Below are positions 1-62,083 of a DNA stretch of 64,000 bases, piece after piece. This DNA is from Trypanosoma brucei (taxonomy: Eukaryota): assembly GCA_000002445.1 (NCBI GenBank), contig AE017150.2, positions 32,001 through 96,000 of the forward strand, written 5' to 3'. The notes under the pieces were generated by a model that saw only the letters and a program-made list of their open reading frames with translations, did no database searches and was not told where the DNA came from. Within the stretch, counting starts at the first letter, position 1, and every line of letters starts with the position of its first letter. The position numbers were made by a program, and so were the translations under genes.

Positions 1-759
1 ATTGGGTCTCTCCTCAATCTCTGCATCTACATCCGCAGGTTCAGGACTTACATCCACCTCCGCTTCGGTCCAAATCCGCTGTGGTTTTCCATCGAATATC
101 TTCATTCCAAATGGCTCTTCATCATAACCCGACATCACATAACTCCATTTTGCATTATAAATGGAATCATAAGCGCCTTCAACTTCAACAGCACCATCAG
201 CTGTTTGGGCAGCTCGTTTCCTTGCTTCTTTGGCAATGCGCAGTGCCCTGTCCAACTTTGTCGCTGCCACGGGACCAACAAATTCCCTTATTTGCGCTGT
301 TGCATTTTCTTCCCATTGGTGAATGTCTTCAATCCTATTACGAGGCAGATAAATAACTGCCCTCAGTAATTGAAACTCATCAAGCCCCCGTACCCTTCCT
401 AGAAGCCTGGCATTCACAATATAATCCTCCGGGCTCTGAACAAAAATGGGCATCCTAACATTTTCTGCTTCAGCCACCGCAAAAGTCCCGCCAACGAACT
501 CCTGAATAAAGTCGTTCACTGTCATTTTACGCAAACCCGCATAGCGTTGCAGCAACACATCCCTCACCTTACTATTCATCGTCCATGTTAGTCCCCCTTC
601 AGTTCTCTGCCGTATTTGTGGAGGCTGAGCAGCAGCAGCAGCAGGAGGCGGCGGTACATTTTCATCCCGTGGCCTCCTCACTGCTGCTCCAAAATTACCT
701 GCCACTTGTTGGTTTGCATTATTTCTTCGTCGACCCCCACCTCTTCGACGTCTTGACAT
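1..759 (-). CDS. RHS-like P-loop NTPase, 5' portion only (ATG at 757-759; 253 codons in-frame to window edge; gene continues beyond position 1). Mosaic of C-like (600-759), A-like (~180-420) and B-like (1-180) segments.
   Basis: I translated the minus strand from the ATG at 757-759 and found no stop down to position 1. The start reads MSRRRRGGG...RRPRDENVPPPP...QIRQRTEGG. DNA 600-759 is near-identical to 26166-26340 (type C N-terminus). DNA 180-365 is near-identical to 5700-5880 (type A). DNA 1-180 is ~88% identical to 15963-16145 (type B). Confidence 0.7.
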   Translation of the reverse strand, partial: MSRRRRGGGRRRNNANQQVAGNFGAAVRRPRDENVPPPPAAAAAQPPQIRQRTEGGLTWTMNSKVRDVLLQRYAGLRKMTVNDFIQEFVGGTFAVAEAENVRMPIFVQSPEDYIVNARLLGRVRGLDEFQLLRAVIYLPRNRIEDIHQWEENATAQIREFVGPVAATKLDRALRIAKEARKRAAQTADGAVEVEGAYDSIYNAKWSYVMSGYDEEPFGMKIFDGKPQRIWTEAEVDVSPEPADVDAEIEERPN

Positions 760-2945
760 AACTCTTTTAATATTATTAACTTAACTTCCTTTCCTTTCCT
801 TTTTTCTCTGAAATTATAAATAACTGAAGTAAAGTAACATATGAGGAAAAAAAAATAGCGTGTGCACAGTGTAACATAATATCAAATGTAATAGAGCAAG
901 ATAATGTTTATTCACTATCATTTGTATAATATGATATCATAGCGCATTTGGTATTGAGAGGAACAATTTCAAAATATAGCAGCTGTAAATAAATTATTTC
1001 CCTTGCTTCATCATTATGTGCTAAATATAATTAATTTCCTGTATCATTCTTTCTAAACCATATATAATACGGAAAAAAAAATATTACTGCCTCATATACC
1101 TGCATAAGCACTTCGTATATATAATCAATATTTAAAGAGAGTCAAATTCTATCAATTAAAATCAAGTAAAACAAAAAACAAAAAATTTATGGATATTAAT
1201 GAAGCGAAGAAATAGAGTATCGGCACAACACATAGGGATATATACACACATGAATACGCACTACACAACTGTTCCACTGGAGTTTCCTCACTTCTGTCAA
1301 TACGTAATATTCACTTGCATTGAATAAACTCATTGAAATATAAATCACTTATCCCCTCCCCCGTGTATTCACTTACTTCCAAAGAAGAATATTAAATAAT
1401 GTCTGTAGGACAGGTAAAAAAGAAACTGATACTCTATTTTGCATCAGATAACCAAAAGGTATTTCTGTTTACTTTGATTATAAACAAAAACATCATTTTG
1501 CTCTCAGTAGAAATAAAATTTAATTACTTGCCTACTCACTGTTCACAACCATCAACAACTAATTCAGCCCCACAAATTCACATGAATCTGATGTGCCATC
1601 GTTGTTGGATTCATTCACACACCTTTTATGATGGTGATTATACAACATATTGTAAATAATTGAAATAAAATTAATACAATTAATTGAGGAAACCGTAAAA
1701 GATTATCATAACATATCTTTTATTTTCCCTCCTTTCATTTACACAAATTAAATATGTAATGATACAATTCCCTTTCAGTGTGTGTCCTCACTTATTGTAT
1801 CATCATTGTAAGTTTCCTATTGCTCATATACACAAAGCTATTGGAATAACAAAAAATAAAACAACACATCTAAACAACTTGAAATAATATATAACAAATA
1901 AAGGTAAAAAAGAGAATGAGCGTGAACTGACAGATAATAAAATGAAACACGTCTCGCACTTCCCTTATAAATATTCAATAGTTGGCGGATTACAAATAAA
2001 AACAATTACATAATATAGAAAAGAAGAGATATAATTACATTATACACCTGCATGTGGATATGTAACAGCGAGTCATAGTAGAAATAAATTGGCTAAACAC
2101 AATAGTTATGGAAGATAACATAATTCAAAATATTAAAAATATTATTCTATCAACATTCCCTTCCTTCTCCATTAAGTTTTCAAATGGTTTCAAATAATAA
2201 TTCACATAATCTCATACATATGTTATGATGGGTTTTGCATGCAGTACAATTTAAAGGAAGTGTAGCTCATATAACATTTTCAAAAATAGGTATTGAATGA
2301 CTGTTTGCTACCATCAATTACATTTCCAATGCCTAATTACACTTTTATATGCATGAAGGAAGTTACTGATCATAACTTTGACATGCTCGAGAATCCATAA
2401 CACAAAGCGACAGCTGCATGCAATTAAAAATAAAAATATAAATAACATCCGAATTCATTTACTGACAGATGAGTGCAAGTCATTCACCCAAACTTCATAG
2501 CTGCAAATATAAACTCGCTGCTGCCAATAGGAAATAATCCCGCATAAATATTGAGTATCTGAAAATGATAGCAACGGGTTTCCATTATTGAAATATATAC
2601 ATAAACTACATGAGGTATATGAAGCCATATTGGTAAAGTGTCACTACGCATGTTGCAATTTACTATCAAAAGTGTCTGCCTTATTTTATTTCTTGTGTTA
2701 CTTTAACTCATGAGTATTATTCATTATTCTTTACAATACAACTGTAAGTCATTTTGCATTTTTTTATATTTTCTTATTCTCTCATACTGGAAGTATTCCA
2801 CATATGAGATTCCTCAATATCGTTCACAAAATAAAAATAATTTTATTTACTTCTGCATTCAGTTTCTCGTGTAGCAGTGTGTACACTAATCATCCATAAA
2901 GTTTTTAATTTGCCAAATACATCATTACGAAACTATTTTCATACA
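760..2945. repeat. Spacer module U, copy 1. This ~2.1-2.2 kb AT-rich module is found 5' of the A/C-type genes.
   Basis: It aligns by eye along its whole length with 6255-8335, 26341-28525, 31769-33915 and 37223-39303. Confidence 0.8.
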
Positions 2946-3797
2946 CAAACACAAACACATACAAATAAACAACCAAACATTTTTAAATGTTGTTGTGAAA
3001 CGAAAATTGAATCACGGAAAATTGTGGGGCGCACACGTAATGGGCACCATGAATGCCTCTTTGGATATTCCTCTATGGATTTTCACCAGCATCATCAACT
3101 TACTTTTTGTGTAAAAAAATAATAGAAACAAGACAGAACAGAAAAAAGAAATAAAGGTACAAATGCATTAATAAACCCAACTCCTCAGCAGGAAATCAAG
3201 AACAGGAAGCCACGAAAAGCGTATGGCACATATGATTTTCACCTCTCAGTTACTTAAGGTGGATCGCATGATTTACCCACCTTCTAAGAACACACCCTCC
3301 GAGAGGCCCGATTAAAAGAAAAAAAAACGCTATGACGGTTGAAAAGACGTTTTTCATAAACCTTCACTTTATACGTGAGGATGCATGAATAAACAATGAT
3401 AACGATGAGAATGCTAACGGAAACAATGACGAACCGTGAGGATCCTAGAAAAAAAAATAAAATAAAATCATCACGTACCTTCGCAGTAGGGAAACTTAAT
3501 AAATAACAAAATATAAATATTCCCTACACAGAGGTATAGGGAGTGTTCGTCAACTTCGTAATGCTAATCAAAAAGCCTTCAAATGTATCGATCATTCGTG
3601 TAGTCAATCAAATAAGAAGTAACATGTACTACACGCACAAAAGCACACTTATAAAGCCTACAAACCCACTTGCCCCCTTTTAGAGAATACCACTCTCTAG
3701 TCAGTGATAGGAGAGGTGATATTAAAAGTATTCCCTTTATAATTATTTCTGACTCATCAATTCGTTGCAACATAACATAACATGCAAAGATGTTGCA
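2946..3797. repeat. Module D_A, copy 1 (~850 bp 3' flank of A-type genes).
   Basis: Shared with 28526-29398, 33916-34765 and 58776-59627. Confidence 0.8.
3256..3283. other. Perfect 7-bp inverted repeat (aaggtgg ... ccacctt) with a 14-nt loop, ~520 nt 3' of the A-type stop codon. Conserved in all four D_A copies.
   Basis: aaggtggatcgcatgatttacccacctt read directly from the sequence. The same string occurs in D_A copies 2-4 near 28857, 34225 and 59105. Confidence 0.5.
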
Positions 3798-6167
3798 TCA
3801 GGCAGCGGGGCCACCAGCAATAGCGTTTGGTTCATCCTGGGTGATCTCCTTAACAATATTCCCTTCCATCTTCACTTGAAACTGGTTGATTCTATTCCAC
3901 AACTCTGTAGTATAATCGCCTCTGCCCCCAACTGGTTCGCACTTCTGCCTCTCCTCGATTGGCTTGCTGTCACTGTACTGTATGTAAATCAGTTCCCATT
4001 TCAAGTTTCTTGCGAGCTCATCCCATTCACCAAACAATTTTTTCATTGCCTTGATAAACTTATCTACCTTCGCTCGTGTCGTGTGATGCGTTGGTGCCAC
4101 TGTCGCCTGGAGCAGAACAATTGTTGTTGCGGTGATCGCCCTTCCTTCTCTATCAACAGCTGGCTCAGTTACAAAGAAAAAGGCGTCCACAACGGGGAAA
4201 TTTCCCTGTACAGGTCGGTAGAAGCACCCGACCTCAATGTCTTGGCCTGTCGTTTCGGGGTTAAACTGACGAAGTGAAGTTGGAACACGTCCCACGGCAT
4301 TACCACTTGCCAGAACGGATACATTTGAATCCATTTCTTCTCCAACGCGAGGGAGATACCGCAGGTGCGTCACAATCGTCTGCACAACATTTCCCATCGT
4401 GAAGGCATATACGCCCACATTTTCAAATTCATCAGCGGCCCGCTCTTCTTTCCCACGAAAAACCTTTCGAAGGTAATTGTCTCGCATACATGCTGTGTTC
4501 GCCCACACTCTCAATTTCTGCTCAATATCAATGGAAACAGCTCTGTTTCTGCATTCTTCTCCATTCTCAGTTACAACCCGGACCAACTTAGCTAACATGT
4601 AAGTAGTCCCGTCCTGGCGCCATTGAACTCGACTATTCAGCACCTTCATGTAGTGACTATCATCGCCTCTACTGATTTCTGCCAGTGCCTCATTTATTTC
4701 TCTAACGCGGCCCTTGTAGCGTTTTTCACCTTCCAGTACTTGGCGGGCCAGTGGGCCCACCTTCTTAATCCATCCCAATGTTTTCTGCCATTCATTCTCA
4801 AGGTTTATGATGTGAGCTTCGGTGATTTTACTTTCCTCCAACTTCGACAGCCGCCTCCACGCAACCGCAGCCTTCAGTTCCACCTCTTCATAGCAATTGA
4901 TGCAAAGGAACTCGCAACCCCGTGGTTCCTTCCAGTCTTTGTAGTTATTTGGATCTGGAGATGTCAACACAATTACGGGCCACGCTCCCGGCAAGTCTGC
5001 GGGTATGGGTTGGTGCCTGTCTTTCCAAAAGTCGTATATAATGTAACCAAGAACTTTTTCAACAACGAAGGCCTCAACAGCATCCAATCCATCTTTTTCT
5101 TTTTCATAGAATACAACCTTTCCCGGATGATCGTTTGTCGCCCTGAAGAAAATATATGCCCTACCCTTCACAAAATAAGCGATATTCCGCAACAGCTCCG
5201 AATCGTAATGCAGCAACCTTTGAAGCAGAAACGAGCCAACACCAAATGATTTCCCAATACCTGGAGTGCCAACGAGGACGCAAGGAATCTGTTTTTTATT
5301 CACGCCTGGCCCTAACCACAAATCCAGCCTGTGCTTCACGAGATACCACACTCTCATTACCTCTCGACGAATGTACACATCCCCGTCAAACACGTAGTCT
5401 CCTGGTTCTTCCGCTTCCTCTTGAATTGCATGTTCCGGAATGCTGAAAGAGTTATACGGCCAACCCTCCTGCGAGGTGAGCACAGCAATCTCTAAATTAC
5501 CGTGACGAGGCAGTGGGTCGCACAAGTCATAAGGCGTGTGACTGACATTCACCTCCTCTTCTGTCCACAACTCGGGCTCGCCGTCACTATTACCCACCAC
5601 CTTCATGCCAAGAGGTAAATCATTGTGACCCGACTCCACATAACCCCATGTCGCATTGTATATGGATTCATATACTCCTTTCAGTTCGACACCATCAGCT
5701 GTTTGGTGAGCTCGTTCCCTTGCTTCTTTGGCAATGCGCAGTGCACTGTCCAACTTTGTCGCTGCCACGGGACCAACAAATTCCCTTATTTGCGCTGTTG
5801 CATTTTCTTCCCATTGGTGAATGTCTTCAATCCTATTACGAGGCAGATAAATAACTGCCCTCAGTAATTGAAACTCATCAAGCCGCTGTATCCTTCCTAG
5901 AAACCCGGCATTCACAATATAATCCTCCGGGCTCTGAACAAAGACACCCACTGACACATTAGAAGTGCCGAGGGTTTCACCGAAGTGATGATTCAAAAGG
6001 TCATGCAATTTCATATCCCTCAAACCCGCAAAGCGTTGAAGCAATACATCTTCAATAGAACTATTCATCGTCCATGTTGGTCCCTCTTCATCCCCGCGCA
6101 GTCTCTTGAGAAAACGCCTTGCCGCATGTAAGCCATCAGTATAGAAACGCCGCATTGAATTCCACAT
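3798..6167 (-). CDS. RHS-like P-loop NTPase, subfamily A, copy A1 (789 aa from ATG of MWNSMRRF). The ORF-track extension to 6254 begins at a GTG and runs through the polypyrimidine tract.
   Basis: The ORF is 2.4 kb. Walker A GTPGIGKS is at ~5244-5273 and Walker-B-like LGYIIYDF at ~5022-5050. It is near-identical to copies at 29399..31768 and 34766..37135. A polyY+AG tract lies immediately 5' of the ATG on the gene strand. Confidence 0.8.
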   Translation of the reverse strand: MWNSMRRFYTDGLHAARRFLKRLRGDEEGPTWTMNSSIEDVLLQRFAGLRDMKLHDLLNHHFGETLGTSNVSVGVFVQSPEDYIVNAGFLGRIQRLDEFQLLRAVIYLPRNRIEDIHQWEENATAQIREFVGPVAATKLDSALRIAKEARERAHQTADGVELKGVYESIYNATWGYVESGHNDLPLGMKVVGNSDGEPELWTEEEVNVSHTPYDLCDPLPRHGNLEIAVLTSQEGWPYNSFSIPEHAIQEEAEEPGDYVFDGDVYIRREVMRVWYLVKHRLDLWLGPGVNKKQIPCVLVGTPGIGKSFGVGSFLLQRLLHYDSELLRNIAYFVKGRAYIFFRATNDHPGKVVFYEKEKDGLDAVEAFVVEKVLGYIIYDFWKDRHQPIPADLPGAWPVIVLTSPDPNNYKDWKEPRGCEFLCINCYEEVELKAAVAWRRLSKLEESKITEAHIINLENEWQKTLGWIKKVGPLARQVLEGEKRYKGRVREINEALAEISRGDDSHYMKVLNSRVQWRQDGTTYMLAKLVRVVTENGEECRNRAVSIDIEQKLRVWANTACMRDNYLRKVFRGKEERAADEFENVGVYAFTMGNVVQTIVTHLRYLPRVGEEMDSNVSVLASGNAVGRVPTSLRQFNPETTGQDIEVGCFYRPVQGNFPVVDAFFFVTEPAVDREGRAITATTIVLLQATVAPTHHTTRAKVDKFIKAMKKLFGEWDELARNLKWELIYIQYSDSKPIEERQKCEPVGGRGDYTTELWNRINQFQVKMEGNIVKEITQDEPNAIAGGPAA

Positions 6168-6199
6168 TGCTAATGCCCTATTGTCTCGTTGTCTAGCAA

Positions 6200-6236
6200 C
6201 TGCAAAATTAAAGTAACGTATGAGGAAAATAATAGT
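6200..6236 (-). promoter_or_regulatory. Putative trans-splice acceptor signal for A1: a polypyrimidine tract followed by AG (gene strand tattattttcctcatacgttactttaattttgcag), ~35 nt 5' of the ATG.
   Basis: Reverse complement of 6200-6236. The same tract precedes A2 and A3. This is the pattern used for spliced-leader addition in trypanosomatids. Confidence 0.4.
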
Positions 6237-6254
6237 GTGTAAATAATGTAACAC

Positions 6255-8335
6255 AATATCAAATGTAATAGAGCAAGATAATGTTTATTCACTATAGTTT
6301 GTATAATATGATATCATAATGTATTTGGTATTGAGAGGAACAATTTCAAAATATAGCAGCTGTAAATAAATATTTCCCTTGCTTCATCATCATGTTCTAA
6401 AAATAATTAATTTCCTGCATCATTCTTTCTAAACCATATATAATATGGAAACAAAAAATATTACTGCCTCATATACATGCATCAACACTACGTATATATA
6501 ATCAATATTTAAAGAGAGTCAAATTCTATCAATTAAAATCAAGTAAAACAAAAAACAAAAAAATTTATGGATATTAATGAAGCGAAGAAAAAGAGTATCG
6601 GCACAACACATAGATATATACACACATGAATACACACCACACAATTGCTTCTTTATTTATCCTCCCCATTTTTACAATTCATAATATTCACTTGCATTGA
6701 ATAAACTCATTGAAAATATAAATCACCTATCCCCTCCCCCGTGTATTCACTTACTTCCAAAGGAGAATATTAAATAATGTCTGTAGGACAGGTAAAAAAA
6801 AAAAACTGATAGTCTTTTTGCATCAGATAACCAGAGAGTATTTCTGTTTACTTTCATAATAAACAAAAACATTCTTTCACCTTCAGTTAAAATAAAATTG
6901 ATTTACTTGCCTCCTTACTGTTCACAACCATCAACAACTAATTCAGCCCCACATATTCACATGTATTTTATGTGCCATCGTTGTTTGATTTATTCACACA
7001 TCTTCCATGATGGTGATGATACAACATATGAAAAATTATTGAAATACAATTAATACAATTATTTGAGGAACCCATGAAAGACTATCATAACATATCTTTT
7101 ATTTTCCCTCCTTTCATTTACAAAAATTAAATATGTAATGAGACAATTCCCTTTCAGTACGTGTCCACACTTATTGTATCATCATTGTAAGTTTCCTATT
7201 GCTCACATACACAGAGCTATTGGAACAACAAAAACATAAAACAACACATCTAAACAACTTGATAAAATATATAATAAATAAATAAAGGTAATAAAGAGAA
7301 TGAGCGTGAACAGACAGATAATAAAATGAAACACGTCTCGTACTTTCCTTATAAATATTCAATAGTTGGCGGATTACAAATAAAAACAATTACACATTAT
7401 AGAAAGGAAAGGATATAATTACATTATACACCTGCATGTGGATATGTAACAGTGAGTCATAGTAGAAATAAATTGTCTAAACACAATAGTTATGGAAGAT
7501 AAAATAATTCAAAATATCAATAATATTATTCTATCAACATTCCCTTCCTTCTCCATTAAGTTTTCAATGGATTTAAATAATAATTCACATAATCCCATAC
7601 ATATGTTATGACGGGTATTGCATGCAGTACAATTTAAAGGAAGTGAAACTCATATAACATTTTCAAAAAAAAAAGGCATTGAATGGTTGTTTGCTACCAT
7701 CAATTACATTTCCAATGCCTAATTACACTTTTGTATGCATGAAGGAAGTTACTGATGATAACTTTGACATGCTCGAGAATCCATAACACAAAGCGACTGC
7801 TGCATGCAATAAAAAATAAAAATATAAATAACATCCGAATTCATTTACTGACAGATGAGTGCAATTCATTCATCCAAACTTCATAGCTGTAAACATAAAC
7901 TCGTTGCTGCCAATAGGAAATAATCCCGCATAAATATTGAGTATCTGAAAATGATAGCAACGGGTTTCCATTTTTGAAATATATGCATAAACTACATGAG
8001 GTATATGAAGCCATATTGGTAAAGTGTCACTACACATGTTGCAATTTACTATCAGAAGTGTCTGCCTTATTTTATTTCTTGTGTTACTGTAACTCATGAG
8101 TATTATTCATTATTCTTTACAATACAACTGTAAGTCATTTTGCATTTTTTTATATTTCCTTATTCTCTCATACTGGAAGTATTCCACATATGAGATTCCT
8201 CAATATCGTTCACAAATAAAAATAATTTTATTTACTTCTGCATTCAGTTTCTTGTGCAGCAGTGTGTGTACTAATCATCCATAAAGTTTTTAATTTGCCA
8301 AATACATCATTACGAAACTATTTTCATACACATGC
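6255..8335. repeat. Spacer module U, copy 2.
   Basis: Same sequence blocks in the same order as the other U copies (e.g. agagtcaaattctatcaattaaaatcaagtaaaac, atgtctgtaggacaggtaaaaaa, catccgaattcatttactgacagatgagtgc). Confidence 0.8.
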
Positions 8336-9084
8336 ACAAACAAACCGTTGGGACAATATCTTTGAGGAATTTCCTTCACTATATTTGCAGTTCAGTAGTA
8401 ATTAAAATACACTTTTTGTATAATTCAACACATGGTGGAATTGCAAAGAAATGTGATGGTACTTATAATCAATAAGTTCCCAATTTTCCTCACATGGTCT
8501 CTTTTCATGCCTTTCCACACATATATAATTCACAGAGAATTACTGCAATATCCTTCATATGCTTTCAGGATTCCATATGTCACAATACAAATAATATACA
8601 TTTACACATATATATAATTTGGACAGCATATTGCTTAACATATAAATTATCACAAACCTATGATATTACACTCCTCCTAAGAATAATAGAATCAAATCAT
8701 TTCTATTTTGCATCATTACATGAAGCTTTGGAAAAGAAAAAAAAAGAATCAAACAAAAGGTAATGTAAAGAACACAGTTTCATAATACAGATTATAACTT
8801 GTTTGTGAATTTCAGATGCAAACACAAAATGTTCAAACAGTAAAACAGTAAAGGATAGTACTGGTGATGTAAGCACAAATTAATCAAAAATAGAAACATA
8901 AATAAAATTGAAACTTATAAAAACACAAATATATATGATACAAATATTTACCACATATTATAATTCGCCACCCTCACACTTGAATTAGAAAGAGTACATA
9001 ACACACATATGTGGTAAAACTAATACAACTCGAGTATACGTATGTGCCATCTTCATAACATAATCATTCTAATATTTACTCAGT

Positions 9085-9114
9085 ATGTGTGTCTGTGTGT
9101 GTGTCTGTGTGTGT
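9085..9114. repeat. TG-rich microsatellite (gtgtgtgtctgtgtgtgtgtctgtgtgtgt) inside the L module. It recurs in other L copies and is length-variable.
   Basis: Read directly from the sequence. Counterparts are at ~40053-40082, ~18771-18796 (TATG/TG) and ~49805-49820 (shorter). Confidence 0.85.
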
Positions 9115-11229
9115 AGAAATGATGAAATGTAATTGTAACAAATCAGGCACAACACAAACAAAATATATGAATTATATTATTCTCTAAAAAGTAGAAGAAT
9201 AAAAATCAAGAAATATTACGCAGCTTTTCTCACAAGTAATTTTGTTTCTGTATATAACACGACAGCTGACAACATTAAACTCTCAATTCCATAATATCTG
9301 ACACCTGAAGTGATAATTAGCAGCGGATGCCTTTAACAAAAAACAACAGAAATAACAACATCAAAGCATGTTTTGAAAGCTTAAATAAACTTCCTCATGG
9401 ATAAACCATTTGTACGAAGTTTGAGTGCCAAGTTGGAGGAACAAAGAAAAAATAAAAAAAGAAGAATTAAATGGTAAAACAATTGCGTGTGATATAACTA
9501 AAGGATTTGTTAGGCACTACACTCATTAAACTCCAGTTTCATAAAAATACTGCAAGGCATAATATTTACTGCTTTACCGGTTATGTGCCTCCAGCAAGCA
9601 ATAATAAATACTTCGAGTATTATTCAATTTCTGATGCTATGAAGTGTGTAATAAATTAGTGCGGGAGCAAAATATTCAAATGTTGGTGTTCACTTCAAAT
9701 TATAACCTCTGCACTATGAATGTCTCTCGATGTTTATAATTTGAGAGAGCAAAAGTGACGGCGCTATTACTTATTTCTTCCAGTTCATGAATACATACAC
9801 ATATTTATACATATATAATCAGAGGTGACACGCAAAAGCGTTTAAACATCAGGCATGAACATCTTTCCATTCAAAGTAAGACGATACAATAAGGTAAGTT
9901 TAGGATGAAGTGAAGGTATCATAATGTTAATATCTTCCTTCAAGCGGAGGATTCAATTCAAATAGGCGTACTTCACAAACAATAGTAAAATAACTGAGAA
10001 AACTTATATCACTTAATCGTTATTTCCTTCAATTCTTATTTTGAATCGCTCTGTACCGTCACACCTTCAATAAAGTATATAGTGACGCATTTCATACATC
10101 CTCCCTAAGCCATCTCTCATAGTCATTAGCTCTCAACAGCAATAATAACAAATAATGAATAGTTTAGTTCTTACCTTCCCTTTTTTACTACCCACAAGAA
10201 AGATATACGAAATAATTATCATACTGAATAAACAGTAGGCGTTCCTCATTATCCTACACAAAATATGAATTGAAACGATAATTTACTAACGGAGCGGAAG
10301 TGTCTGAAAGCGTCTTTAACTCGTCTCCTGTGCGGGGCGAAGAGGGTTGTGTTGTGTGGGCTTTCTAAAAATTTCACTCTCTTGCAGACAGCTGTGTAAA
10401 TAAACGGGGAGTACAGGTGTGTTTAGAGAAAGATAACCGTACAAAATAATACTCTGCACTCCTATGACCAAAACAACCATTCATAATGCAGGCTTTCAAA
10501 ATACACGATATCATCTCAACAAATTGTAATTTTTTTTTGCATAATGTCCTCCAGAAGACAGAACAACAGATGACACAGTTAAATAACACATGACAAACAA
10601 GGAATATAACCGCACATCCTCAGCAGTAAATGTTTCAGTTTCTCCTTTAAAAAAAAAAAAGAAAAATAAAACAGTTTCACACGTGTGGTCCAAAAGCTGC
10701 ATCAGCCAATACAATATCTTGACAGCTTGTCACGCAGTCTTGCCTCAAGAAGAAAATAAATCATTCATCTCTGCTTTCCTTAGTTGATAAATGAGATCCC
10801 ATGCTGTGTTAACTCCCGTCTCCATTCAAAAAGTTGACTCAACGTTATGACGAGGCAGTGACCAAAAACAATCCAAATGCAATTCTAAATTTCTTCATAT
10901 TACGTTTTCAGTTTTATTACACATTTCCCCAACCATTCCAAGTACTAACAGGAATAATTTGGTTCTATAATAATGCATGTGTTTTCTACAGCTCTTTCAT
11001 TTTGTTATGATCCGCACAAAAATTATATATGTGGTTGTTGATTCGTCCTGTCAATCAAAGTAACAATCATAATAATTAATTTTCCCCTTTTCTTCATTTT
11101 TTCTATTAGCACATGTGCACCTTGGTGAGATCACTTTCACTCATTTGCACTGATTGGTCAACACTATTTAGTTCGTTATTCAACACACTCCCTTACATGT
11201 CCTCCTCTCACCATTTATAACCCACACGA

Positions 11230-13814: not shown

Positions 13815-14166
13815 TATTTCTGTCTTTCTCTGTGCCCCTTAAGATTACGATGTGGCTTAACTCCAGTTACGCGTTAGCCGATAAAATACTACTTTTGCTA
13901 TTCCTTAGTCGTCTTCATTTCCACTTCCCTTCCCTCACCTCCGGCACTCAAGTGAATTATCACGTCCCTTTCCTTGCAGCAGCTGCGGAAGCTCATTACT
14001 GGTGGACAAACAACACACTTGGAATGGCGCAACGGGGCACTTCAAGTTGTGATCATAAACCAAACCAGGTACAAAAACGAACCCGCTCCTCCTAATGGTT
14101 GGTTCCCTCCTCTTTAAGCATTTGTCACTCTTAACAGCAACGCCGTGCACTGCTAAAAAAAAACAA

Positions 14167-16743
14167 TTACGCGTCTTCACCTCCTTCCACGTCGTCCATT
14201 GCTACGTCACCTCGCCCCTCCACAACCTCTTCACGAGCGCGCCGCCTTCCCGCCAGTCCCATCAATGCTGGTGCATCTCGCATGCCAGATTCTCGGCGAT
14301 ATGCCTGAATTAATTCCGCTTGCATCGTTTCCTTGAGTGTCACTTGGAATTGGTCGATGGATTCCCAAAATGTTTGCGGTCCCAGAGGACCTCCGTCCTC
14401 ACCTCCAGCTCTATCGGGAGGTCCTTCGCAAAGTTGCCTGCGGGTTATCGTGCCACCGTTAACCGAATTAATGTATATCATTTCCCAAGCCATGTTACCC
14501 GAAAACGTGTTCCAGTCGGAAAAATAACTTGCTATGTTTTCTCGGAACTTCTGCACCTTATCCGTAGTGGTGGGGTGCCTCTCCGACTTGGTTACTTGTA
14601 AAAGCACAGCTATATTTGGAGTGGTCGGTGGCGCTGTTCCGTCACGGTTTCTCCTGAGCCGCCCCTCAACGAAAAAAAAGCCATCCACCACGGGTTCATT
14701 GCCTGTGGCAGGGAGGTAGAGAACCATGTGTTCACAGCGTTCAATTGGTCGCTGTTGGGCCGCAGGTAAGGCCTTCTGCCCAATGAGTCTCAACTGCTGA
14801 GGAGCCATGTCGTTCAGTATGCTTCGACGGTCAGCTATTTCTCTGCCTCGTCGCAGGTATTTCAAGTTGTTTGCGATAACTTTAAAAACTCGAGGGAAAA
14901 GAAGCGAAAGCAACGCAAGCCTTTCAAAAGCGTTGGCCCCGACACTCTCGTCTGACATTATAATCTCCTTTGACGTCATCTCCACAATAAGAATGCCAAA
15001 TAATGTGCAAATCAACATATTCCAAATGTTGACAGAAAGCGATCTGCAACGATATGATTCGACATTGACAGTCCCAGAGCTTACCCGCACTATCTTCACC
15101 AATTTGTGCGTTACCACATCATTTTGCCAGTCCGAAGATTTTCCAATAATCTTATCATATTTCTTTCCGTTTTCGCTATCGAGCTGCCTAGCTTCTTTAC
15201 GCACACATTCCAGTCGTGCGTCATAGTCAGGGGCTGAGAAAACAAAACGAGGCAATGGACCAACCATGTCAATGCGCTCTTCCACAATTTTCCACTCGCT
15301 TTCAAGCTCCTCCATTAACTGCTGCCTCGTTTTGTCGCGCGGCGCCTCCTCCGAAAGCACACACAGCTTTTTCCATGCCACAAATGCCTTCATGTCGCGC
15401 ACATCATCACAGTTTATAATAATATGGCGGTCTCCCCTATTCTTTGCCCAGTGCTCGTAATGTGCCGTATCCGGAGAAGTGAGGATAGTTACACCCCAAA
15501 AAGGTGAAGGAAGATTCTGCGGTGGAGTTTCATTCTTTTCACTGATATCAACAATTACGTGCCCCTTCTTTTCGTACTTTACTGCATCTATGGCCTTAAC
15601 AGCAGCTTTCACGTGTTCATACTGCACAACCCTTTCCTCTTCTCCGGGTTTCTTGTTATATATGAGGAAGGCGTTCCCGTCTGTGAAATATGCAACAACA
15701 TCAAGCATTCCATCATTGAAGTGAAGCAATGAATGAAGCAAAAATGATCCAACTCCATACGACTTTCCAATACCAGGTGTACCAATAACAATATGTATCG
15801 GTGGTCTGTGGGCTGTGTCATTCAGCCACCATGTTTGCAGCCCTCGTTGGATTATATACCACACGCGCATGATTTCACGACGGATGTATACGTGGTTGCA
15901 AATTGCTCTGCATTTCTTCCTTAAGCACAGTGAAAACCCGTTGTATGGCCAACCCTTCTCCGAAGTGAGAACGAAAATCTCCAAACCATTGGGTCTCTCC
16001 TCAATCTCTGCATCAACATTCGCAGGGTCAGGAGTTATATCCACCTCCGCTTCGGTCCATATGTGCTGTGGTTTTCCATCAAACACTTTCATGCCAAGTG
16101 GCTCTTCATCATAACCCGACATTACATAACTCCATTTTGCATTATAAATGGAATCATACACTCCTTTCAGTTCGACAGCACTAGCAGCTGTTTGAGCAGC
16201 TCGTTCCAATGCTACATTGAGTGCATCATTCAACATGTTAGTGACAATAATCCAAAGCCGCTCTCCATCTCTCAGTCCACGAATATTCACCTGTAACCCG
16301 GCCTTTACTACCTCATCTGCTTGTTGCCAGCGCTGAAGATTCAATATTCCCTCTCTGAACAACAGGGGGTAAGCAGTAGCAAAAACTTGGTACACTTGAT
16401 ACTCTGTTGTCGCGAATATTCGATTGAGCGCATTAACGTCATTAATATACTCTTCAGGTTCCAGTACGAACACAAACATTGATACATTATTTTCTTCATT
16501 CACATTATATCTTCTGCCAAAATTACGCCTCAAAAAATCATTCAACGTCACATTTTCAGGATGAGCCCGACCATTCAGCAAAACTGCTTCAACGCTGCTG
16601 AAAAGACCCCATCGTGGTTGGTTATTATTCTCCACTCGTTGCTGGACTGCTGGAGGTTCCGCATCGTTACGCGCAGCCTCCTCATTTTCTCGTCTCCTTC
16701 CCTCAATGTCACCCCTTCCTTCAATAGGAACCTGTTGATTCAT
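14167..16743 (-). CDS. RHS-like P-loop NTPase, subfamily B, copy B1 (858 aa, MNQQVPIEGRGD...).
   Basis: The ORF is 2.58 kb. It carries IVIGTPGIGKSYGVGSFLLHSLLHF (Walker A), GHVIVDI (Walker B-like) and VLTSPD. The central region is homologous to types A and C, with divergent termini. Confidence 0.8.
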   Translation of the reverse strand: MNQQVPIEGRGDIEGRRRENEEAARNDAEPPAVQQRVENNNQPRWGLFSSVEAVLLNGRAHPENVTLNDFLRRNFGRRYNVNEENNVSMFVFVLEPEEYINDVNALNRIFATTEYQVYQVFATAYPLLFREGILNLQRWQQADEVVKAGLQVNIRGLRDGERLWIIVTNMLNDALNVALERAAQTAASAVELKGVYDSIYNAKWSYVMSGYDEEPLGMKVFDGKPQHIWTEAEVDITPDPANVDAEIEERPNGLEIFVLTSEKGWPYNGFSLCLRKKCRAICNHVYIRREIMRVWYIIQRGLQTWWLNDTAHRPPIHIVIGTPGIGKSYGVGSFLLHSLLHFNDGMLDVVAYFTDGNAFLIYNKKPGEEERVVQYEHVKAAVKAIDAVKYEKKGHVIVDISEKNETPPQNLPSPFWGVTILTSPDTAHYEHWAKNRGDRHIIINCDDVRDMKAFVAWKKLCVLSEEAPRDKTRQQLMEELESEWKIVEERIDMVGPLPRFVFSAPDYDARLECVRKEARQLDSENGKKYDKIIGKSSDWQNDVVTHKLVKIVRVSSGTVNVESYRCRSLSVNIWNMLICTLFGILIVEMTSKEIIMSDESVGANAFERLALLSLLFPRVFKVIANNLKYLRRGREIADRRSILNDMAPQQLRLIGQKALPAAQQRPIERCEHMVLYLPATGNEPVVDGFFFVEGRLRRNRDGTAPPTTPNIAVLLQVTKSERHPTTTDKVQKFRENIASYFSDWNTFSGNMAWEMIYINSVNGGTITRRQLCEGPPDRAGGEDGGPLGPQTFWESIDQFQVTLKETMQAELIQAYRRESGMRDAPALMGLAGRRRAREEVVEGRGDVAMDDVEGGEDA

Positions 16744-17305
16744 TTCACTCTCTGAATAATAATCTTAATTGAGTGCGTTGTGTTATTTCCTTTCTTTGTA
16801 ACATAAATTTTAAAAAAGGGATAAAAGATGAGAGAATTTAAAATAGATACATTTCTAAACCAAAGCAAATATACAATCAATGAATATCAGGAATTAATAT
16901 GGCAGGTGGAAACTATTTATTGAAATTAGAATTCAATACAAATCTTATCATGTGTTAAGAACTCACAGCAACTTAAGCACAAATAAGGTATGACAGTACG
17001 AATAGACATTTCTGTTTGGAGGAAAGCTCAAACAACAATTCCCATTCAGAGCACACAATCATTCCAGAAAAAAAAAATATACTTAGATATATTTATTTAT
17101 GAAAAAGCAAAAAAAATAAATGTGGCATTGCCATAAAAAACAGCATATAATAGGTTTAGTGATAAATCATGCAAAACGTAGAATCCTCGGGTGCATACAG
17201 AAAAGTGCCTTACTTACCTTACAAAATTAAAAATATACCAAAAGTAAAAATAAATATAAAACATTATCTTCACAAATCAAACCAGACACGTATTAAGCAA
17301 GAGAA
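16744..17305. repeat. Module U_B, copy 1 (~560 bp immediately 5' of B-type genes).
   Basis: Shared with 47725-48291, 57464-58032 and 62084-62479. Confidence 0.8.
16780..16850 (-). promoter_or_regulatory. Putative polypyrimidine tract and AG acceptor region 5' of B1 (gene strand ctctcatcttttatccctttttttaaaatttatgttacaaag).
   Basis: Reverse complement of 16790-16835. Conserved in front of B2 and B3. Confidence 0.3.
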
Positions 17306-23835: not shown

Positions 23836-26340
23836 CTATGCATTGTTACCACCTCTATTGTTAACTCCGTTGTTATTTTCACCTCTTGTTTTCAATTCAA
23901 CGTATAGTGCAATAATGTGTTTATAAAGTGAGACCGCGAACTGACGCACTTCCCTTTTCCAAAATCTTTCCTCAACCTCATTATTTTGCCCTTCATCTCT
24001 GTCAGTCCTTTCACAGCACTGCGGCTTCGTAATTTTTTCGCTGTCAACCCTTTGGACATAAATTATTTCCCATACCATATCATTGGAAAAATTGTCCCAA
24101 CCTTGGAAGTAACTTCGCAAATACCTCTTCATCTTAAATAACCCACCGGTGCTGCAGGGATGTCTACCGGAAACTGTGTACTGCAGTCCCACAAAAGTCT
24201 TCGGGCTCTCAACGAAAAAGAACGCATCAACAACTGGGAAGCTCCTTGATTGCGGCTTGTACAATTTCATGTATTGAATTTCAGCTCCAGCTACAATTGG
24301 AACATCCTCAGGAACCACAATCGAAGGACCAATGAGTCTTGGTTCTTGCAGCACCTGCAGCACACTTTGTGGAATTTGATTCCTAGCAAATGAAAGGCCC
24401 TGTAACTCCCTTGCCAACTCAGTTAGTGTATTCTCATGCGACAATGCTTCAATGCCACTCTTCTCAAACATGTAGGCGGCGATAGCGCGGTTAGACAGCA
24501 GAGCAGACATTGCAGCATATTTATCCGTTAGCCAAGGTATCAGAAAGTCTAAAATAGCTTGTCCCGTGTAAGATGAAAGCGGTCTGCAGCGATACATTTC
24601 ACACAGGAGCTTCTCCTCCTTCACTCGAACAACCCCTACTAACTTGTGTGATACTTCATCTGTTTGCCACATAGCTGCGTTTTGGAAATATTTAGCGTAA
24701 TCATTCATATCATCATCTTTCATTTTGCCAATGGCTTCCTGAACCTTTCCCTCCTGCCTATTATACGAACTAAGACGACCAATATGACGAAGCAGTGGAC
24801 CAACGATACGAATGCGAGCTTGAATTTCTTGCCATTCACTTTCAATTTTCTCCTTTGCAACTGGAGGACTCCACTTGTAAGCAGGAGCAATTTTCCCCCA
24901 TCTCGATATGTGTATGGCTTCCAAATCCTTCAATGTATCACAGTTCATGTAAATATCTGAGGCGGTGTTTTGCTTGGACCATTCATGGAATTGCTTGACG
25001 TTTGGAGAGCTCAAAGCAATACCGGCACAACCAGCAGGTGGTTTCGTCGGAGCAGGATGGTCCTTGTCCACATCGAATATAACGTATCCCTTGATATCCT
25101 CACCGCTACGTGATCCTCCGATTATTTGCTCAACAACTGTAAATGCATTCCCATAATCATTGTAAAACGTAACATATCCTGCTCGACCACCTATGGGTTT
25201 GTGAAACACATACGCCTTACCCCTCACAACGTATATGATAATCTGAAGCTGACTCGCTTCATAATGCAGTAGTTTGTATAACAGTAGGGATCCCACGGAA
25301 AACGATTTACCAATACCAGGTGTACCAATAAGAACATTAGACGCATCGTCAACAATCACTTCATCCATAAGCCACCGGTTAAGCACATTCTCCACCTTGT
25401 ACCACACCCTCAGTGCTTCCCTGCGGATATAAACATCACTTTTAAAAACATACTCCACTCCCTTCTCATGATTAATATCATAATCATTTGGGTTCTTTTC
25501 GAAAGACGTGTATGGCCAACCCATTTGAGATGTAAGCACAGCAATCTCCAAGTTACCGTGACGGGGAAGTGGTTCGTTCATAGTTTCCGGAGTGTGACTG
25601 ACATCAACCTCCTCCTTCGTCCACATGTGTGGCGGTCTTCCATTGAACACTTTCATTCCAAGTGGCTCTGTATCATGACCCGACTCCACATAACTCCACG
25701 TCGCATTGTATATAGAATCATATACTCCTTTAAGTTCGCTACCATCAGCTGTTTGGGCAGCTCGCTTTTCCGCTCTCTTGGCGGCCGTCACCGCTCCATC
25801 CAACCTTCCCCTCGCCACGGGACCAACAAATTCTCTTATTTCCACTGTCCCCTTCTCCTCCCACTGACTGAGGTAGTAAATTTCTTTTTCATCAAGGTAC
25901 CTTGCTTTCCGCTTCATTTCAGAGAATTGGTCATATAATTCTTTATATTCCTCAAACTGATAAAGCCGCTGTATCCTTTCTAGAATCCCGGCATCCAAAA
26001 TATAATCCCCTGGGCTTTGAACAAACACATCCATGGCCACATTCTCTGTGTTATACGTGTTTAAAAACTTTTTCAGCAAAAAGTCATGCAGTGTCAAATT
26101 ACGCAAACCCGCATAATCATCCAGCAGCACATCCCTCACCTTACTATCCATAGTCCAGTTGGGCCCCCCTTCAGTTCTCTGCCGTATTTGTGGAGGCTGA
26201 GCAGCAGCAGCAGCAGCAGGAGGAGGAGGCGGCGGTACATTTTCATCCCGTGGCCTCCTCATGGGCCCTTCAAAATTATCTGCCACTTGTTGATTTTCAT
26301 TATTTCCTTGTGGAGCTGCGGGACTATTTGCTCTTGACAT
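23836..26340 (-). CDS. RHS-like P-loop NTPase, subfamily C, single copy (834 aa, MSRANSPAAPQ..., proline/alanine-rich N-terminus).
   Basis: The ORF is 2.5 kb. It carries LIGTPGIGKSFSVGSLLLYKLLHY, GYVIFDVDKD and the same conserved blocks as A and B (YIRRE..RVWY, GNLEIAVLTSQ.GWPY, FPVVDAFFFVE). Confidence 0.8.
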   Translation of the reverse strand: MSRANSPAAPQGNNENQQVADNFEGPMRRPRDENVPPPPPPAAAAAAQPPQIRQRTEGGPNWTMDSKVRDVLLDDYAGLRNLTLHDFLLKKFLNTYNTENVAMDVFVQSPGDYILDAGILERIQRLYQFEEYKELYDQFSEMKRKARYLDEKEIYYLSQWEEKGTVEIREFVGPVARGRLDGAVTAAKRAEKRAAQTADGSELKGVYDSIYNATWSYVESGHDTEPLGMKVFNGRPPHMWTKEEVDVSHTPETMNEPLPRHGNLEIAVLTSQMGWPYTSFEKNPNDYDINHEKGVEYVFKSDVYIRREALRVWYKVENVLNRWLMDEVIVDDASNVLIGTPGIGKSFSVGSLLLYKLLHYEASQLQIIIYVVRGKAYVFHKPIGGRAGYVTFYNDYGNAFTVVEQIIGGSRSGEDIKGYVIFDVDKDHPAPTKPPAGCAGIALSSPNVKQFHEWSKQNTASDIYMNCDTLKDLEAIHISRWGKIAPAYKWSPPVAKEKIESEWQEIQARIRIVGPLLRHIGRLSSYNRQEGKVQEAIGKMKDDDMNDYAKYFQNAAMWQTDEVSHKLVGVVRVKEEKLLCEMYRCRPLSSYTGQAILDFLIPWLTDKYAAMSALLSNRAIAAYMFEKSGIEALSHENTLTELARELQGLSFARNQIPQSVLQVLQEPRLIGPSIVVPEDVPIVAGAEIQYMKLYKPQSRSFPVVDAFFFVESPKTFVGLQYTVSGRHPCSTGGLFKMKRYLRSYFQGWDNFSNDMVWEIIYVQRVDSEKITKPQCCERTDRDEGQNNEVEERFWKREVRQFAVSLYKHIIALYVELKTRGENNNGVNNRGGNNA

Positions 26341-37135: not shown

Positions 37136-37222
37136 TGCTAATGCCCTATTGTCTCGTTGTCTAGCAACTGCAAAATTAAAGTAACGTATGAGGAAAATAA
37201 TAGTGTGTGAACAGTGTAACAT

Positions 37223-59627: not shown

Positions 59628-62083
59628 TCAGGCAGCGGGGCCACCAGCAATAGCGTTTGGTTCATCCTGGGTGATCTCCTTAACAATATTCCCTTCCATC
59701 TTCACTTGAAACTGGCTGATTTTATTCCACAACTTTGTAGTATAATCGCCTCTGCCCCCAACTGGTTCGCACTTCTGCCTCACATCGATTGGCTTGCTGT
59801 CACTGTACTGTATGTAAATCAGCTCCCATTTCAAGTTTCTTGCGAGCTTATCCCATTCACCAAACAATTGTTTCATTGCCTTGATAAACTTATCTACCTT
59901 CTCTCGTGTCGTGTGATGCGTTGGTGCCACTGTCGGCTGGAGCAGAACAATTGTTGTTGCGGTGATCGCTCTTCCTTCTCTATCAACAGCTGGCTCAGTT
60001 ACAAAGAAAAAGGCGTCCACAACGGGGAAATTTCCCTGTACAGGTCGGTAAAGGCACCCAACCTTGATGTCTTGGCCTGTCGTTTCGGGGTAAATATGAC
60101 GAAGTGAAGTTGGAACACGTCCCACGGCATTACCACTTGCCAGAGCGGATACATTTGAATCCATTTCTTCTCCAACGCGAGGGAGATACCGCAGGTGCGT
60201 CACAATCGTCTGCACAACATTTCCCATCGTGAAGGCATATATGCCCACATTTTCAAATTCATCAGCGGCCTGCTCTTTTTTCCCACGAAAACCCTTTCGA
60301 AGGTAATTGTCTCGCATACATGCTGTGTCCGCCCACACTCTCAATTTCTGCTCAATATCAATGGAAACAGCTCTGTTTCTGCATTCTTCTCCATTCTCAG
60401 TTACAACCCGGACCAACTTAGCCAACCTGTATGTAGTCCCGTCCTCGCGCCATTGAACTCGACTATTCAGCACCTTCATGTAGTGTTCAGCATCGCCTCT
60501 ACTGATCTCCTCCAGTGCCCCATTTATTTCTCTAACGCGGCCCTTGTAGCGTTTTTCACCTTCCAGTACTTGGCGGGCCAGTGGGCCCACCTTCTTAATC
60601 CATCCCAATGTTTTCTGCCATTCATTCTCAAGGTTTATGATGTGAGCTTCGGTGATTTTACTTTCGTCCAACTTCGACAGCCGCCTTCACGCAACCGCAG
60701 CCTTCAGTTCCACCTCTTCATAGCAATTGATGCAAAAGCGCTCGCAAGCCCGTGGCCGCTTCCAGCGTCTGTAGTTATTTGGATCTGGAGATGTCAACAC
60801 AATTACGGGCCACGTTTCCGGCAATTTTGTCGGTATGGGTTCATCTCTCTCTTTCGCAAAGTCGTATATAATGTAACCAAGACCTTCTTCATCAGCCAAG
60901 TCATTGACAGCATCCAATCCATCTACTTCTTTTTCATAAAATACAACCTTTCTCGGATGATCATTTGTCGCCCTGAAGAAAATATATGCCCTACCCTTCA
61001 CAAAATAAGCGATATTCCGCAACAGCTCCGAATCGTAATGCAGCAACCTTTGGAGCAGAAACGAGCCAACACCAAATGATTTCCCAATACCTGGAGTGCC
61101 AACGAGGACGCAAGGTATTTGTTTTTTATTCACGCCTGGCCCTAACCACAAATCCAGCCTCTGCTTCACAAGATACCACACTCTCATTACCTCTCGACGA
61201 ATGTACACATCCCCGTCAAACACATGGACCTTTGGCTTTTCCTCACCCTCTTGAATTGCTCTTCGCGGAATGCGGAAACGATTATACGGCCAACCCTTCT
61301 GCGAGGTGAGCACAGCAATCTCTAAATTACCACGTCGAGGCAGTGGGTCGCACAAATCGTAAGGCGTGTGACTGACATTCACCTCCTCTTCTGTCCACAA
61401 CTCGGGCTCGCCGTCACTATTACCCACCACCTTCATGCCAAGAGGTAAGTCATTGTGACCCGACTCCACATAACCCCACGTCGCATTGTATATGGATTCA
61501 TATACTCCTTTCAGTTCGACACCATCAGCTCTTTGAGCAGCTCGCTTTTCCGCTTCCTTGAGTGCATTATTCAACATGTTAGTGACAATAATCCAAGTCT
61601 GCTCTCCATTTCTCAGTCCACGAATATTCACCTGTAACCTGGCCTTTACTTCCTCATTTGCTTGTTTCCAGCGCACGAGATTCAATATTCCCTCATTCTC
61701 ATAAAAACCATAGACGCTGACAAAACGTTTGTACACTTTATACGGTATTGTCGCGAATATTCGATTGAGCGCATTAACGTCATTAATATACTCTTCACAT
61801 CGTTGTAAACCCCAGATATTGATACATTATTTTCTTCGTTCACATTGTATCTTGTGCCAAAATTAAGCTTCAAAAAATCATTCAACATCACATTTTGAGG
61901 ATGTGGCAGACCATTCAGCAAAACTGCTTCAATGCAGCTGAAAAGTCTCCATTGTGGTTGGTTATTATTCTCCACTCGTTGCTGCACTGCTGGAGGTTCC
62001 GCATCGTTACGCGCAGCCTCCTCACGCTCTCGTCTCCTTCCCTCAATGTCACCCCTTCCTTCAATAGGAACCTGTTGATTCAT
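59628..62083 (-). pseudogene. Chimeric RHS-like pseudogene. The N-terminus is B-like and identical to B3 (61700-62083). The body is A-like from ~61550 downward. It has one in-frame nonsense (TGG to TGA at 60687-60689) and a small deletion/frameshift near 61740-61800.
   Basis: The ORF track splits it into 59628..60671, 60687..61736 and 61682..62083 in different frames. At 60687-60689 the DNA reads tca (TGA on the gene strand), whereas intact A copies read cca (TGG, W of AVAWRRLSK). Flank 62084-62479 is identical to the B3 upstream module. Confidence 0.75.

What the first reader, a model, noticed from the sequence alone, without database searches (positions are those of the whole stretch)
1..759. 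Mosaic gene at the window edge: C-type N-terminus, A-type middle, B-type continuation
Segments 600-759, ~180-420 and 1-180 are each near-identical to a different subfamily copy elsewhere in the window (26166-26340, 5700-5920 and 15963-16145), yet the frame stays open. This is direct evidence of segmental gene conversion or recombination generating new subfamily combinations.
Basis: seen in the sequence. Interest (0 to 1): 0.55.

Follow-up and report, generated by a model that had tools for sequence, protein, structure and literature searches.

The report
Patchwork start of a trypanosome RHS gene
The window edge holds the first 253 codons of a retrotransposon-hot-spot (RHS) gene from the Trypanosoma brucei TREU927 chromosome II array, and its patchwork of pieces shared with different paralogues is real but is the ordinary, already described result of recombination in this gene family.

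Summary
The window is the RHS gene array of T. brucei brucei TREU927 chromosome II. Seven intact genes in it are exact matches to XP_951478 to XP_951484. Positions 1-759 (minus strand) are the open 5' 253 codons of an eighth RHS gene, cut by the window edge.

The mosaic is real. Sites that discriminate between parents are strongly clustered (permutation p<5e-5 for all three parent pairs).
- 593-680 is identical to the RHS1-type copy C, apart from a 9-nt indel.
- 217-444 is 224/228 identical to the three RHS2-type copies (A).
- 1-216 is only about 87-89% like the B copies. It is the common variant also found in RHS3 and RHS4 proteins, so it is not specifically B.
It matches RHS1-like proteins encoded elsewhere in the genome (30/30 aa).

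The same alternative cassettes are shuffled across the whole family. The A-to-B-like junction also occurs in RHS3 and in a T. b. equiperdum protein, so it is neither new nor an assembly artefact. A second mosaic (a B-to-A pseudogene) lies at 59628-62083.

Recombination between paralogues at short conserved patches is the best explanation. This is already published for RHS genes, so interest is low.

The parts
1..759 (-). 5' part (253 codons, ATG at 759) of an RHS gene cut by the window edge. No stop codon. Best whole-length relative is RHS3 P0018, at only 66-67% aa identity.
500..759 (-). RHS1-like (C-like) tract. 593-680 is identical to C (23836-26340) apart from a 9-nt indel. 720-759 is diverged from C and resembles another RHS1 variant (P0051). 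It is colinear with the segmental duplication 508-8345 ~ 26080-33932.
445..534 (-). Cassette with no donor in the window (<=57% nt identity to any copy). The encoded aa 76-105 match P0019 30/30 and RHS1 proteins P0043 and P0046 28/30.
217..444 (-). RHS2-type (A-type) tract, 224/228 identical to all three A copies, with a 139-nt perfect run at 248-386.
1..216 (-). B-like tract (start of the RHS_N domain), 87-89% identical to B1. It is the common 'AKWSYVMSGY...ITPxPANVDAEIEERPN' variant also carried by RHS3, RHS4 and other proteins. About 176-205 has substitutions not found in any window copy.
760..3797 (-). Intergenic region upstream of the edge gene, shared at 80-100% identity (per 100-nt window over 801-2900) with the regions upstream of C and the A copies. 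It is part of the duplicated array unit.
3798..6167 (-). A1, an intact RHS2-type gene (XP_951478), the nearest copy carrying the A tract.
14167..16743 (-). B1, an intact B-type RHS gene (XP_951479, also AAL14355), the best window match for 1-216.
23836..26340 (-). C, an intact RHS1-type gene (XP_951480, also AAL14352), the best window match for 593-759.
59628..62083 (-). Second mosaic: an RHS pseudogene with a B-type 5' end of about 540 nt and an A-type body. The junction at about 61525-61545 lies in the same conserved RAAQTADG-coding patch as the edge gene's A-to-B-like junction. The frame is broken.

Best explanation
Positions 1-759 are the 5' third of a member of the retrotransposon hot spot (RHS) gene family, in the tandem RHS array of T. 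brucei brucei TREU927 chromosome II.

The N-terminal 250 codons of this family consist of four or so blocks. Each block exists in a few deeply diverged alternative versions, and the blocks are separated by short stretches conserved in all copies. Examples are the sequences coding FVQSPEDYI and RAAQTADG.

Homologous recombination between paralogues starts or ends in those conserved patches and reshuffles the blocks. The routes are unequal crossing-over within the array, and gene conversion between neighbouring and ectopic copies.

The edge gene is one such combination:
- RHS1-like blocks 1 and 2,
- an RHS2-like block 3, recently homogenised with the RHS2 copies (the nearest is 3 kb away),
- the common RHS3/4/5-like block 4.

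Shown: family and organism identity, the mosaic pattern and its significance, family-wide shuffling, and the position of junctions in conserved patches.

Inferred: the recombination mechanism, its direction and its timing.
For: Family and organism:
- Pfam RHS_N, RHSP and DUF7578 hit all copies.
- The seven intact genes are exact matches to XP_951478-XP_951484 of TREU927, on a 1,193,948-bp record. A clusters with 'RHS2a' and C with RHS1.

Mosaic pattern:
- Sliding identity, perfect-run mapping and Viterbi segmentation agree.
- Permutation p<5e-5 for each parent pair.

Array duplications:
- Large segmental duplications at 94-96% identity. One of them ends inside the gene at about 508 (508-8345 ~ 26080-33932).

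Family-wide shuffling:
- Alternative versions of blocks M1-M4 occur in many combinations among 25 T. brucei-group proteins.
- The automatic test scored a four-gamete violation only for M2/M3. The automatic clustering lumped M4 into one type. Sorting the M4 sequences printed by hand into the B-like and A/C-like types also gives violations for M1/M4 and M3/M4.

Junctions:
- They fall in nucleotide stretches conserved in all copies.
- The pseudogene at 59628-62083 has the opposite B-to-A junction in the same patch, with block-wise switching among B1/B2/B3 and among A1/A2/A3.

Literature:
- RHS mosaics by unequal crossing-over and gene conversion in T. cruzi, and crossing-over between RHS variants upstream of the retroelement site in T. 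brucei (PMC7563717).
Against: - No long-read or independent clone data were available for this exact copy.
- The direction of transfer, and whether each junction arose in this copy or was inherited from an ancestral gene, cannot be resolved. The A-to-B-like junction is shared with RHS3 and with T. b. equiperdum, so it is probably old.
- The B-like tract is 11-13% diverged from every window copy, so no recent exchange with B is shown.
- Only 9 nucleotide copies (those in the window) could be analysed. The family-wide comparison is at protein level only.
Confidence: 0.85

Rival explanations
1. Inherited architecture. The gene belongs to a subfamily (RHS3-like) whose ancestral N-terminus already had this order of block types. 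On this view the pattern is vertical descent of an old chimera, plus local homogenisation, and not new recombination in this copy.
For: The best whole-length relative is RHS3 P0018 (66-67% over aa 1-253). P0018 and T. b. equiperdum P0001 share the block-3 (A-type) plus block-4 (B-like) combination.
Against: Block 3 is 98% identical at nucleotide level to the neighbouring RHS2 copies, but only about 75-85% identical at protein level to P0018 or P0001, so a recent exchange with RHS2 is still needed. The block-2/block-3 combination is unique to this copy in the sample. This rival overlaps the main explanation, since the old chimera was itself made by recombination.
Confidence: 0.3
2. Assembly chimera. 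Reads from different RHS paralogues were collapsed into an artificial mosaic at this position of a highly repetitive array.
For: The array contains 5-30 kb repeats at 92-96% identity, which are hard to assemble. No read-level data were available here.
Against: Three junctions lie within 760 nt, and the conserved patches at the junctions are only about 20-40 nt long. From my own knowledge, Sanger reads are much longer than that. The frame stays open through all junctions. The same block combinations occur in independently deposited sequences (P0018 RHS3, P0001 T. b. equiperdum). One tract has no source in the window at all. Neighbouring genes match separately deposited GenBank proteins exactly (AAL14352 and AAL14355 against the AAQ155xx series).
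Confidence: 0.03
3. Mutational divergence with block-wise selective constraint. The near-identical tracts would simply be strongly conserved parts of the protein, and the rest would have diverged by point mutation.
For: The junction patches are conserved in all subfamilies.
Against: The tract identical to A is only 30-50% identical to B and 42-80% identical to C over the same columns. The tract identical to C is 40-45% identical to A and B. Discrete alternative versions exist, not graded divergence. Conflicting block combinations across the family cannot arise without recombination. The non-coding flanks are 92-100% identical, so the duplicates are young.
Confidence: 0.02

Closest known systems
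T. brucei RHS multigene family (RHS1 to RHS6/7; Bringaud et al. 2002, as cited in PMC7563717; Florini et al. 2019, PMC6393297)
   Same: Same organism, same chromosome II array and same Pfam domains. The neighbouring genes are exact matches to deposited RHS1-type and RHS2-cluster proteins and a third deposited RHS protein of the B type. Subfamilies are defined by C-termini, while N-terminal parts are shared between subfamilies. 78 of 118 TREU927 copies are pseudogenes.
   Different: Nothing categorical. No annotated protein beginning with this 253-aa sequence was found, so this copy may be one of the annotated pseudogenes. Its subfamily cannot be assigned because the C-terminus lies outside the window.
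Mosaic RHS genes of T. cruzi (Bernardo et al. 2020, PMC7563717)
   Same: That paper reports transcribed RHS genes with up to three inserted fragments from different RHS groups, recombination frequent in the amino-terminal coding region, and a mechanism of unequal crossing-over plus segmental and interlocus gene conversion. That is the same kind of pattern seen here.
   Different: Different species. Here the exchange points can be placed in specific conserved patches of a tandem array, and a second mosaic with the opposite junction lies in the same window.
Mosaic VSG formation by segmental gene conversion in T. brucei
   Same: Subtelomeric paralogue arrays of the same organism, in which segmental conversion creates chimeric genes (my own knowledge; cited within PMC7563717).
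   Different: RHS proteins are nuclear P-loop proteins, not surface antigens. Nothing suggests that the shuffling is selected for immune evasion or happens on the time scale of an infection.

Membership tests
RHS (retrotransposon hot spot) protein family | RHS_N domain (PF20445) | tested here: met
   Edge protein aa 197-244 match profile positions 1-48 of 127, E=7.1e-18, above the curated cut-off. The match is truncated by the window edge.
RHS (retrotransposon hot spot) protein family | N-terminal DUF7578 (PF24466), as in the full-length RHS copies | tested here: met
   aa 76-135, E=1.4e-17. The same domain is found in A, B and C.
RHS (retrotransposon hot spot) protein family | P-loop domain RHSP (PF07999) with the GTPGIGKS ATP/GTP-binding motif | not testable with these tools
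   In the full copies it lies at about aa 300-650, so for the edge gene it is beyond position 1. The contig could not be extended.
RHS (retrotransposon hot spot) protein family | RIME/ingi insertion hot spot just downstream of the P-loop codons | not testable with these tools
   It lies outside the window for this copy (position taken from PMC7563717).
RHS subfamily assignment (RHS1-7) | Subfamily-specific C-terminal domain | not testable with these tools
   The C-terminus is outside the window. The N-terminus is closest overall to RHS3 P0018 (66-67%), but subfamilies are defined by C-termini.
Recombinant (mosaic) gene produced by gene conversion or crossing-over between paralogues | Parent-informative sites significantly clustered along the gene | tested here: met
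   Maximum-excursion statistic 77 of 240, 152 of 307 and 140 of 290 informative sites. None of 20,000 permutations reached these values.
Recombinant (mosaic) gene produced by gene conversion or crossing-over between paralogues | Tracts near-identical to one paralogue, flanked by sequence highly diverged from that same paralogue | tested here: met
   A tract 224/228, against 35-50% identity to A on the 5' side. C tract 593-680 identical, against 35-58% further 3'. The B-like tract meets this only weakly, at 87-89%.
Recombinant (mosaic) gene produced by gene conversion or crossing-over between paralogues | Conflicting block combinations across the family (four-gamete type incompatibility) | tested here: met
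   The automatic test scored M2/M3 only. M1/M4 and M3/M4 incompatibilities come from sorting the block-4 sequences printed by hand into two types. This is protein level and a limited sample.
Recombinant (mosaic) gene produced by gene conversion or crossing-over between paralogues | All tracts lie on one physical molecule (not an assembly artefact) | not testable with these tools
   No reads were available. Indirect support: the same junction type occurs in independent sequences P0018 and P0001.

The most novel reading that the evidence does not exclude
The N-terminal 250 codons of T. brucei RHS genes could be a true combinatorial cassette system. It would have a small set of fixed exchange points (the FVQSPEDYI-coding and RAAQTADG-coding patches). 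The array would keep generating in-frame, expressed new combinations that alter the partner specificity of these nuclear, transcription-associated P-loop proteins. The edge gene (A-to-B-like) and the pseudogene at 59628-62083 (B-to-A) would then be products of exchanges at one such hot spot.
Probability: 0.15. Interest if true: 0.4.

Novelty: already known. Interest (0 to 1): 0.15.

Why it matters
It matters little beyond being a clear worked example. RHS genes are an abundant subtelomeric family of trypanosomes. Some members act in Pol II transcription elongation and mRNA export (PMC6393297). Mosaicism through recombination is already an accepted route of their diversification.

The useful by-products are a base-level map of the exchange points in this array and the observation that junctions recur in the same short conserved patches. 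These could guide a family-wide breakpoint analysis.

Tried and rejected
Extending the contig beyond position 1:
- The look-up of encoding contigs returned nothing for A1, C, B1 or P0002. T. brucei genes appear not to be in that index.

Looking for the full-length product of the edge gene:
- The search for homologous proteins with the 253-aa fragment gave a single 62% hit. That search clearly missed relatives that BLASTP later found. I therefore treat the absence of a 100% hit only as moderate evidence that this copy has no annotated protein, that is, that it is a pseudogene.
- The exhaustive search of representatives gave RHS3 P0018, at 67%, as the best hit.

Literature:
- Bringaud et al. 2002 could not be read, by DOI or by my guessed PMC id. 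Its content is cited second-hand from PMC7563717.
- A literature search for 'chromosome II' found nothing.

Other negative results:
- The Rfam scan of the window gave no hits.
- No tandem repeats in 1-4000.
- Automatic single-linkage clustering of block 4 lumped all variants together, so I classified block 4 by hand from the printed sequences.

Idea considered and set aside:
- The edge gene and the pseudogene at 59628-62083 as recent reciprocal crossover products. I consider this unlikely because the edge gene's B-like part is 11-13% diverged from all B copies.

Full report
**What the window is**

All large ORFs lie on the minus strand and are separated by AT-rich spacers. They carry the Pfam domains DUF7578, RHS_N and RHSP, the retrotransposon hot spot protein P-loop domain.

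Exact-sequence look-up shows that the seven intact genes are XP_951478 to XP_951484 of Trypanosoma brucei brucei TREU927, on a 1,193,948-bp record. From my own knowledge that length is chromosome II.

They cluster with 'RHS2a' (AAL14353).
- 'C' (23836-26340) clusters with RHS1 proteins and equals AAL14352.
- 'B' copies are 14167-16743, 45151-47724 and 54881-57463. B1 equals AAL14355.

So this is a long-known, annotated locus.

The array is built of large segmental duplications at 92-96% identity, for example 827-18773 ~ 31807-49766 and 508-8345 ~ 26080-33932.

**Checking the observation**

Positions 759 to 1 on the minus strand form an open frame of 253 codons starting with ATG. It has DUF7578 and the first 48 positions of RHS_N.

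I aligned the 5' 1 kb of all nine copies in the window. Then I computed 40-nt sliding identity, the longest identical runs and a three-parent minimum-mismatch segmentation. The result:

| Window positions | Best parent | Identity | Notes |
|---|---|---|---|
| 759-500 | C | 82% | 593-680 identical except one 9-nt indel in a GCN/CCN run; 720-759 only about 60% |
| 499-453 | none | best 53% | no parent in the window |
| 452-194 | A | 94.6% | core 217-444 is 224/228, with a 139-nt perfect run at 248-386 |
| 193-1 | B1 | 88.6% | BLAST gives 87.1% over 1-232 against 15988-16219 |

Among sites where two candidate parents differ and the edge gene agrees with one of them, the agreement is extremely clustered. 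None of 20,000 permutations reached the observed excursion for C/A, A/B or C/B.

The mosaic is therefore real and far beyond chance. However:
- Only two of the three claimed tracts are 'near-identical'.
- The finding omits the tract at about 445-534.

**Where the unexplained pieces come from**

I compared 30-aa windows of the edge protein with 69 RHS proteins retrieved from the database, P0001 and the window's own proteins.

- aa 76-105 (window 445-534) match P0019 30/30, and the RHS1 proteins P0043 and P0046 28/30.
- aa 1-30 match another RHS1 variant, P0051, at 26/30.
- The whole first 105 aa are thus RHS1-like, but they are a patchwork of RHS1 variants that are mostly encoded outside the window.
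- The 'B-type' tract (aa 181-253) is matched about equally well by B1, P0023, P0006, P0009 (RHS4) and P0018 (RHS3).
- Window about 176-205 carries substitutions found in no window copy. They encode GAVEVEGAY, which resembles P0019, P0023 and P0006.

'B-type' is therefore too specific a label. This tract is the common variant of that block.

**Family-wide picture**

An alignment of the N-termini of 25 T. brucei-group RHS proteins shows four blocks. Each block has a few deeply diverged alternative versions, found in many combinations. Examples:
- P0006 has C-like blocks 1-3 with a B-like block 4.
- P0016 (H25N7.01) has B-like blocks 1-3 with an A-like block 4.
- RHS3 (P0018) has a C-like block 1, an A-like block 3 and a B-like block 4.

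All four combinations of two block-2 types with two block-3 types exist. The automatic clustering lumped block 4 into one type. When I sorted the block-4 sequences printed by hand into the two obvious types, the same holds for blocks 1/4 and 3/4. That pattern cannot arise without recombination.

The A-type block 3 plus B-like block 4 combination of the edge gene is shared by P0018 and by the T. b. equiperdum protein P0001. So this junction is old and exists in independent sequences. The block-2/block-3 junction at about 445 is unique to the edge gene in this sample.

The best whole-length relative of the fragment, both in the retrieved set and among 1.84 billion cluster representatives, is RHS3 P0018, at only 66-67%.

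**Junction anatomy**

At nucleotide level the switches fall within stretches conserved in every copy:
- TTTGTTCAGAGCCCGGAGGATTATATT (coding FVQSPEDYI) at about 445,
- CGAGCTGCCCAAACAGCTGATGG (coding RAAQTADG) at about 200-220.

The pseudogene at 59628-62083 is a second mosaic.
- It is B-type for its first 540 nt or so, switching block-wise between B3-like, B1/B2-like and B2-like stretches.
- From about 61545 downward it is A-type, switching between A2-like and A1/A3-like stretches.
- Its B-to-A junction sits in the same RAAQTADG-coding patch.

One end of the duplication 508-8345 ~ 26080-33932 falls inside the edge gene at about 508. This fits an unequal exchange within the array.

**Mechanism**

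The best-supported explanation is homologous recombination between RHS paralogues, initiated or resolved in the short conserved patches. The routes are unequal crossing-over in the tandem array, and gene conversion with neighbouring and ectopic copies.

The 98% identity of block 3 to the RHS2 copies (the nearest is 3 kb away), against about 75-85% protein identity to the same block in RHS3 or T. b. equiperdum, indicates a comparatively recent exchange between the edge gene and the RHS2 copies. Its direction is unknown. The junction to the B-like block is probably inherited.

This is inference from pattern. No read-level or experimental evidence was available.

Rivals I considered:
- An assembly chimera is unlikely. 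Three junctions lie within 760 nt, at patches of only 20-40 nt. The frame stays open. One tract has no source in the window. The same combinations occur in independent sequences.
- Divergence by point mutation with block-wise constraint is excluded by the discrete alternative versions and the conflicting combinations.

**Comparison with what is known**

- RHS genes were described in T. brucei in 2002.
- TREU927 has 118 RHS genes, of which 78 are pseudogenes (PMC6393297).
- For T. cruzi, an RDP-based study reported that transcribed RHS genes are mosaics with up to three foreign fragments, often in the amino-terminal coding region. It attributed them to unequal crossing-over and to segmental and interlocus gene conversion (PMC7563717).

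The finding is thus another instance of a published phenomenon in a published locus.

**What could not be settled**

- The remaining two thirds of the gene lie beyond position 1. These include the P-loop domain, the RIME/ingi hot spot and the subfamily-defining C-terminus.
- Attempts to extend the contig failed.
- No database protein starts with this 253-aa sequence. This hints that the copy is annotated as a pseudogene, but that search was demonstrably insensitive, so the hint is moderate at best.

**Verdict**

- Novelty: already known.
- Interest: low, 0.15.

Noticed in passing
window 59628-62083 (-): A second mosaic RHS copy, a pseudogene with a broken frame. Its 5' end of about 540 nt is B-type and its body is A-type. 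There is fine block-wise switching among B1/B2/B3 and among A1/A2/A3. The B-to-A junction lies in the same conserved RAAQTADG-coding patch as the edge gene's junction.
   Followed up: partly
window 11894-12445 (-), 12640-12906 (-), 53254-53628 (-); repeat units 10661-12189 ~ 41645-43173 ~ 51384-52911 ~ 62477-64000: Broken ORFs between the RHS genes match RNA polymerase second-largest-subunit domains (Pfam RNA_pol_Rpb2_6 E=4.6e-13; Rpb2_4 E=1.3e-11 and 9.5e-9). This looks like a decayed Rpb2-like pseudogene relic that has been copied along with the array unit upstream of the B-type genes.
   Followed up: partly
window 6168-6254 and 37136-37222 (-): A1 and A3 have an in-frame 29-codon upstream extension, giving an 818-aa form, the length of the deposited 'RHS2a' AAL14353. 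In A1 the extension begins with GTG instead of ATG. A2 lacks the extension (789 aa). The annotated XP_ proteins use the 789-aa start.
   Followed up: no
window 827-18773 vs 31807-49766; 7579-18070 vs 48290-58794; 508-8345 vs 26080-33932: The array is built of nested segmental duplications of 8-18 kb at 94-96% identity. The gene order is edge, A1, B1, C, A2, A3, B2, B3, then the pseudogene. One duplication end lies inside the edge gene at about 508.
   Followed up: partly
window 640-660 (-), versus 26230-26260 in C: A 9-nt length difference in a (CCN)n(GCN)n run coding the PPPP-AAAAA stretch is the only difference between the edge gene and C across 593-680. It is probably replication slippage in a low-complexity tract.
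   Followed up: no
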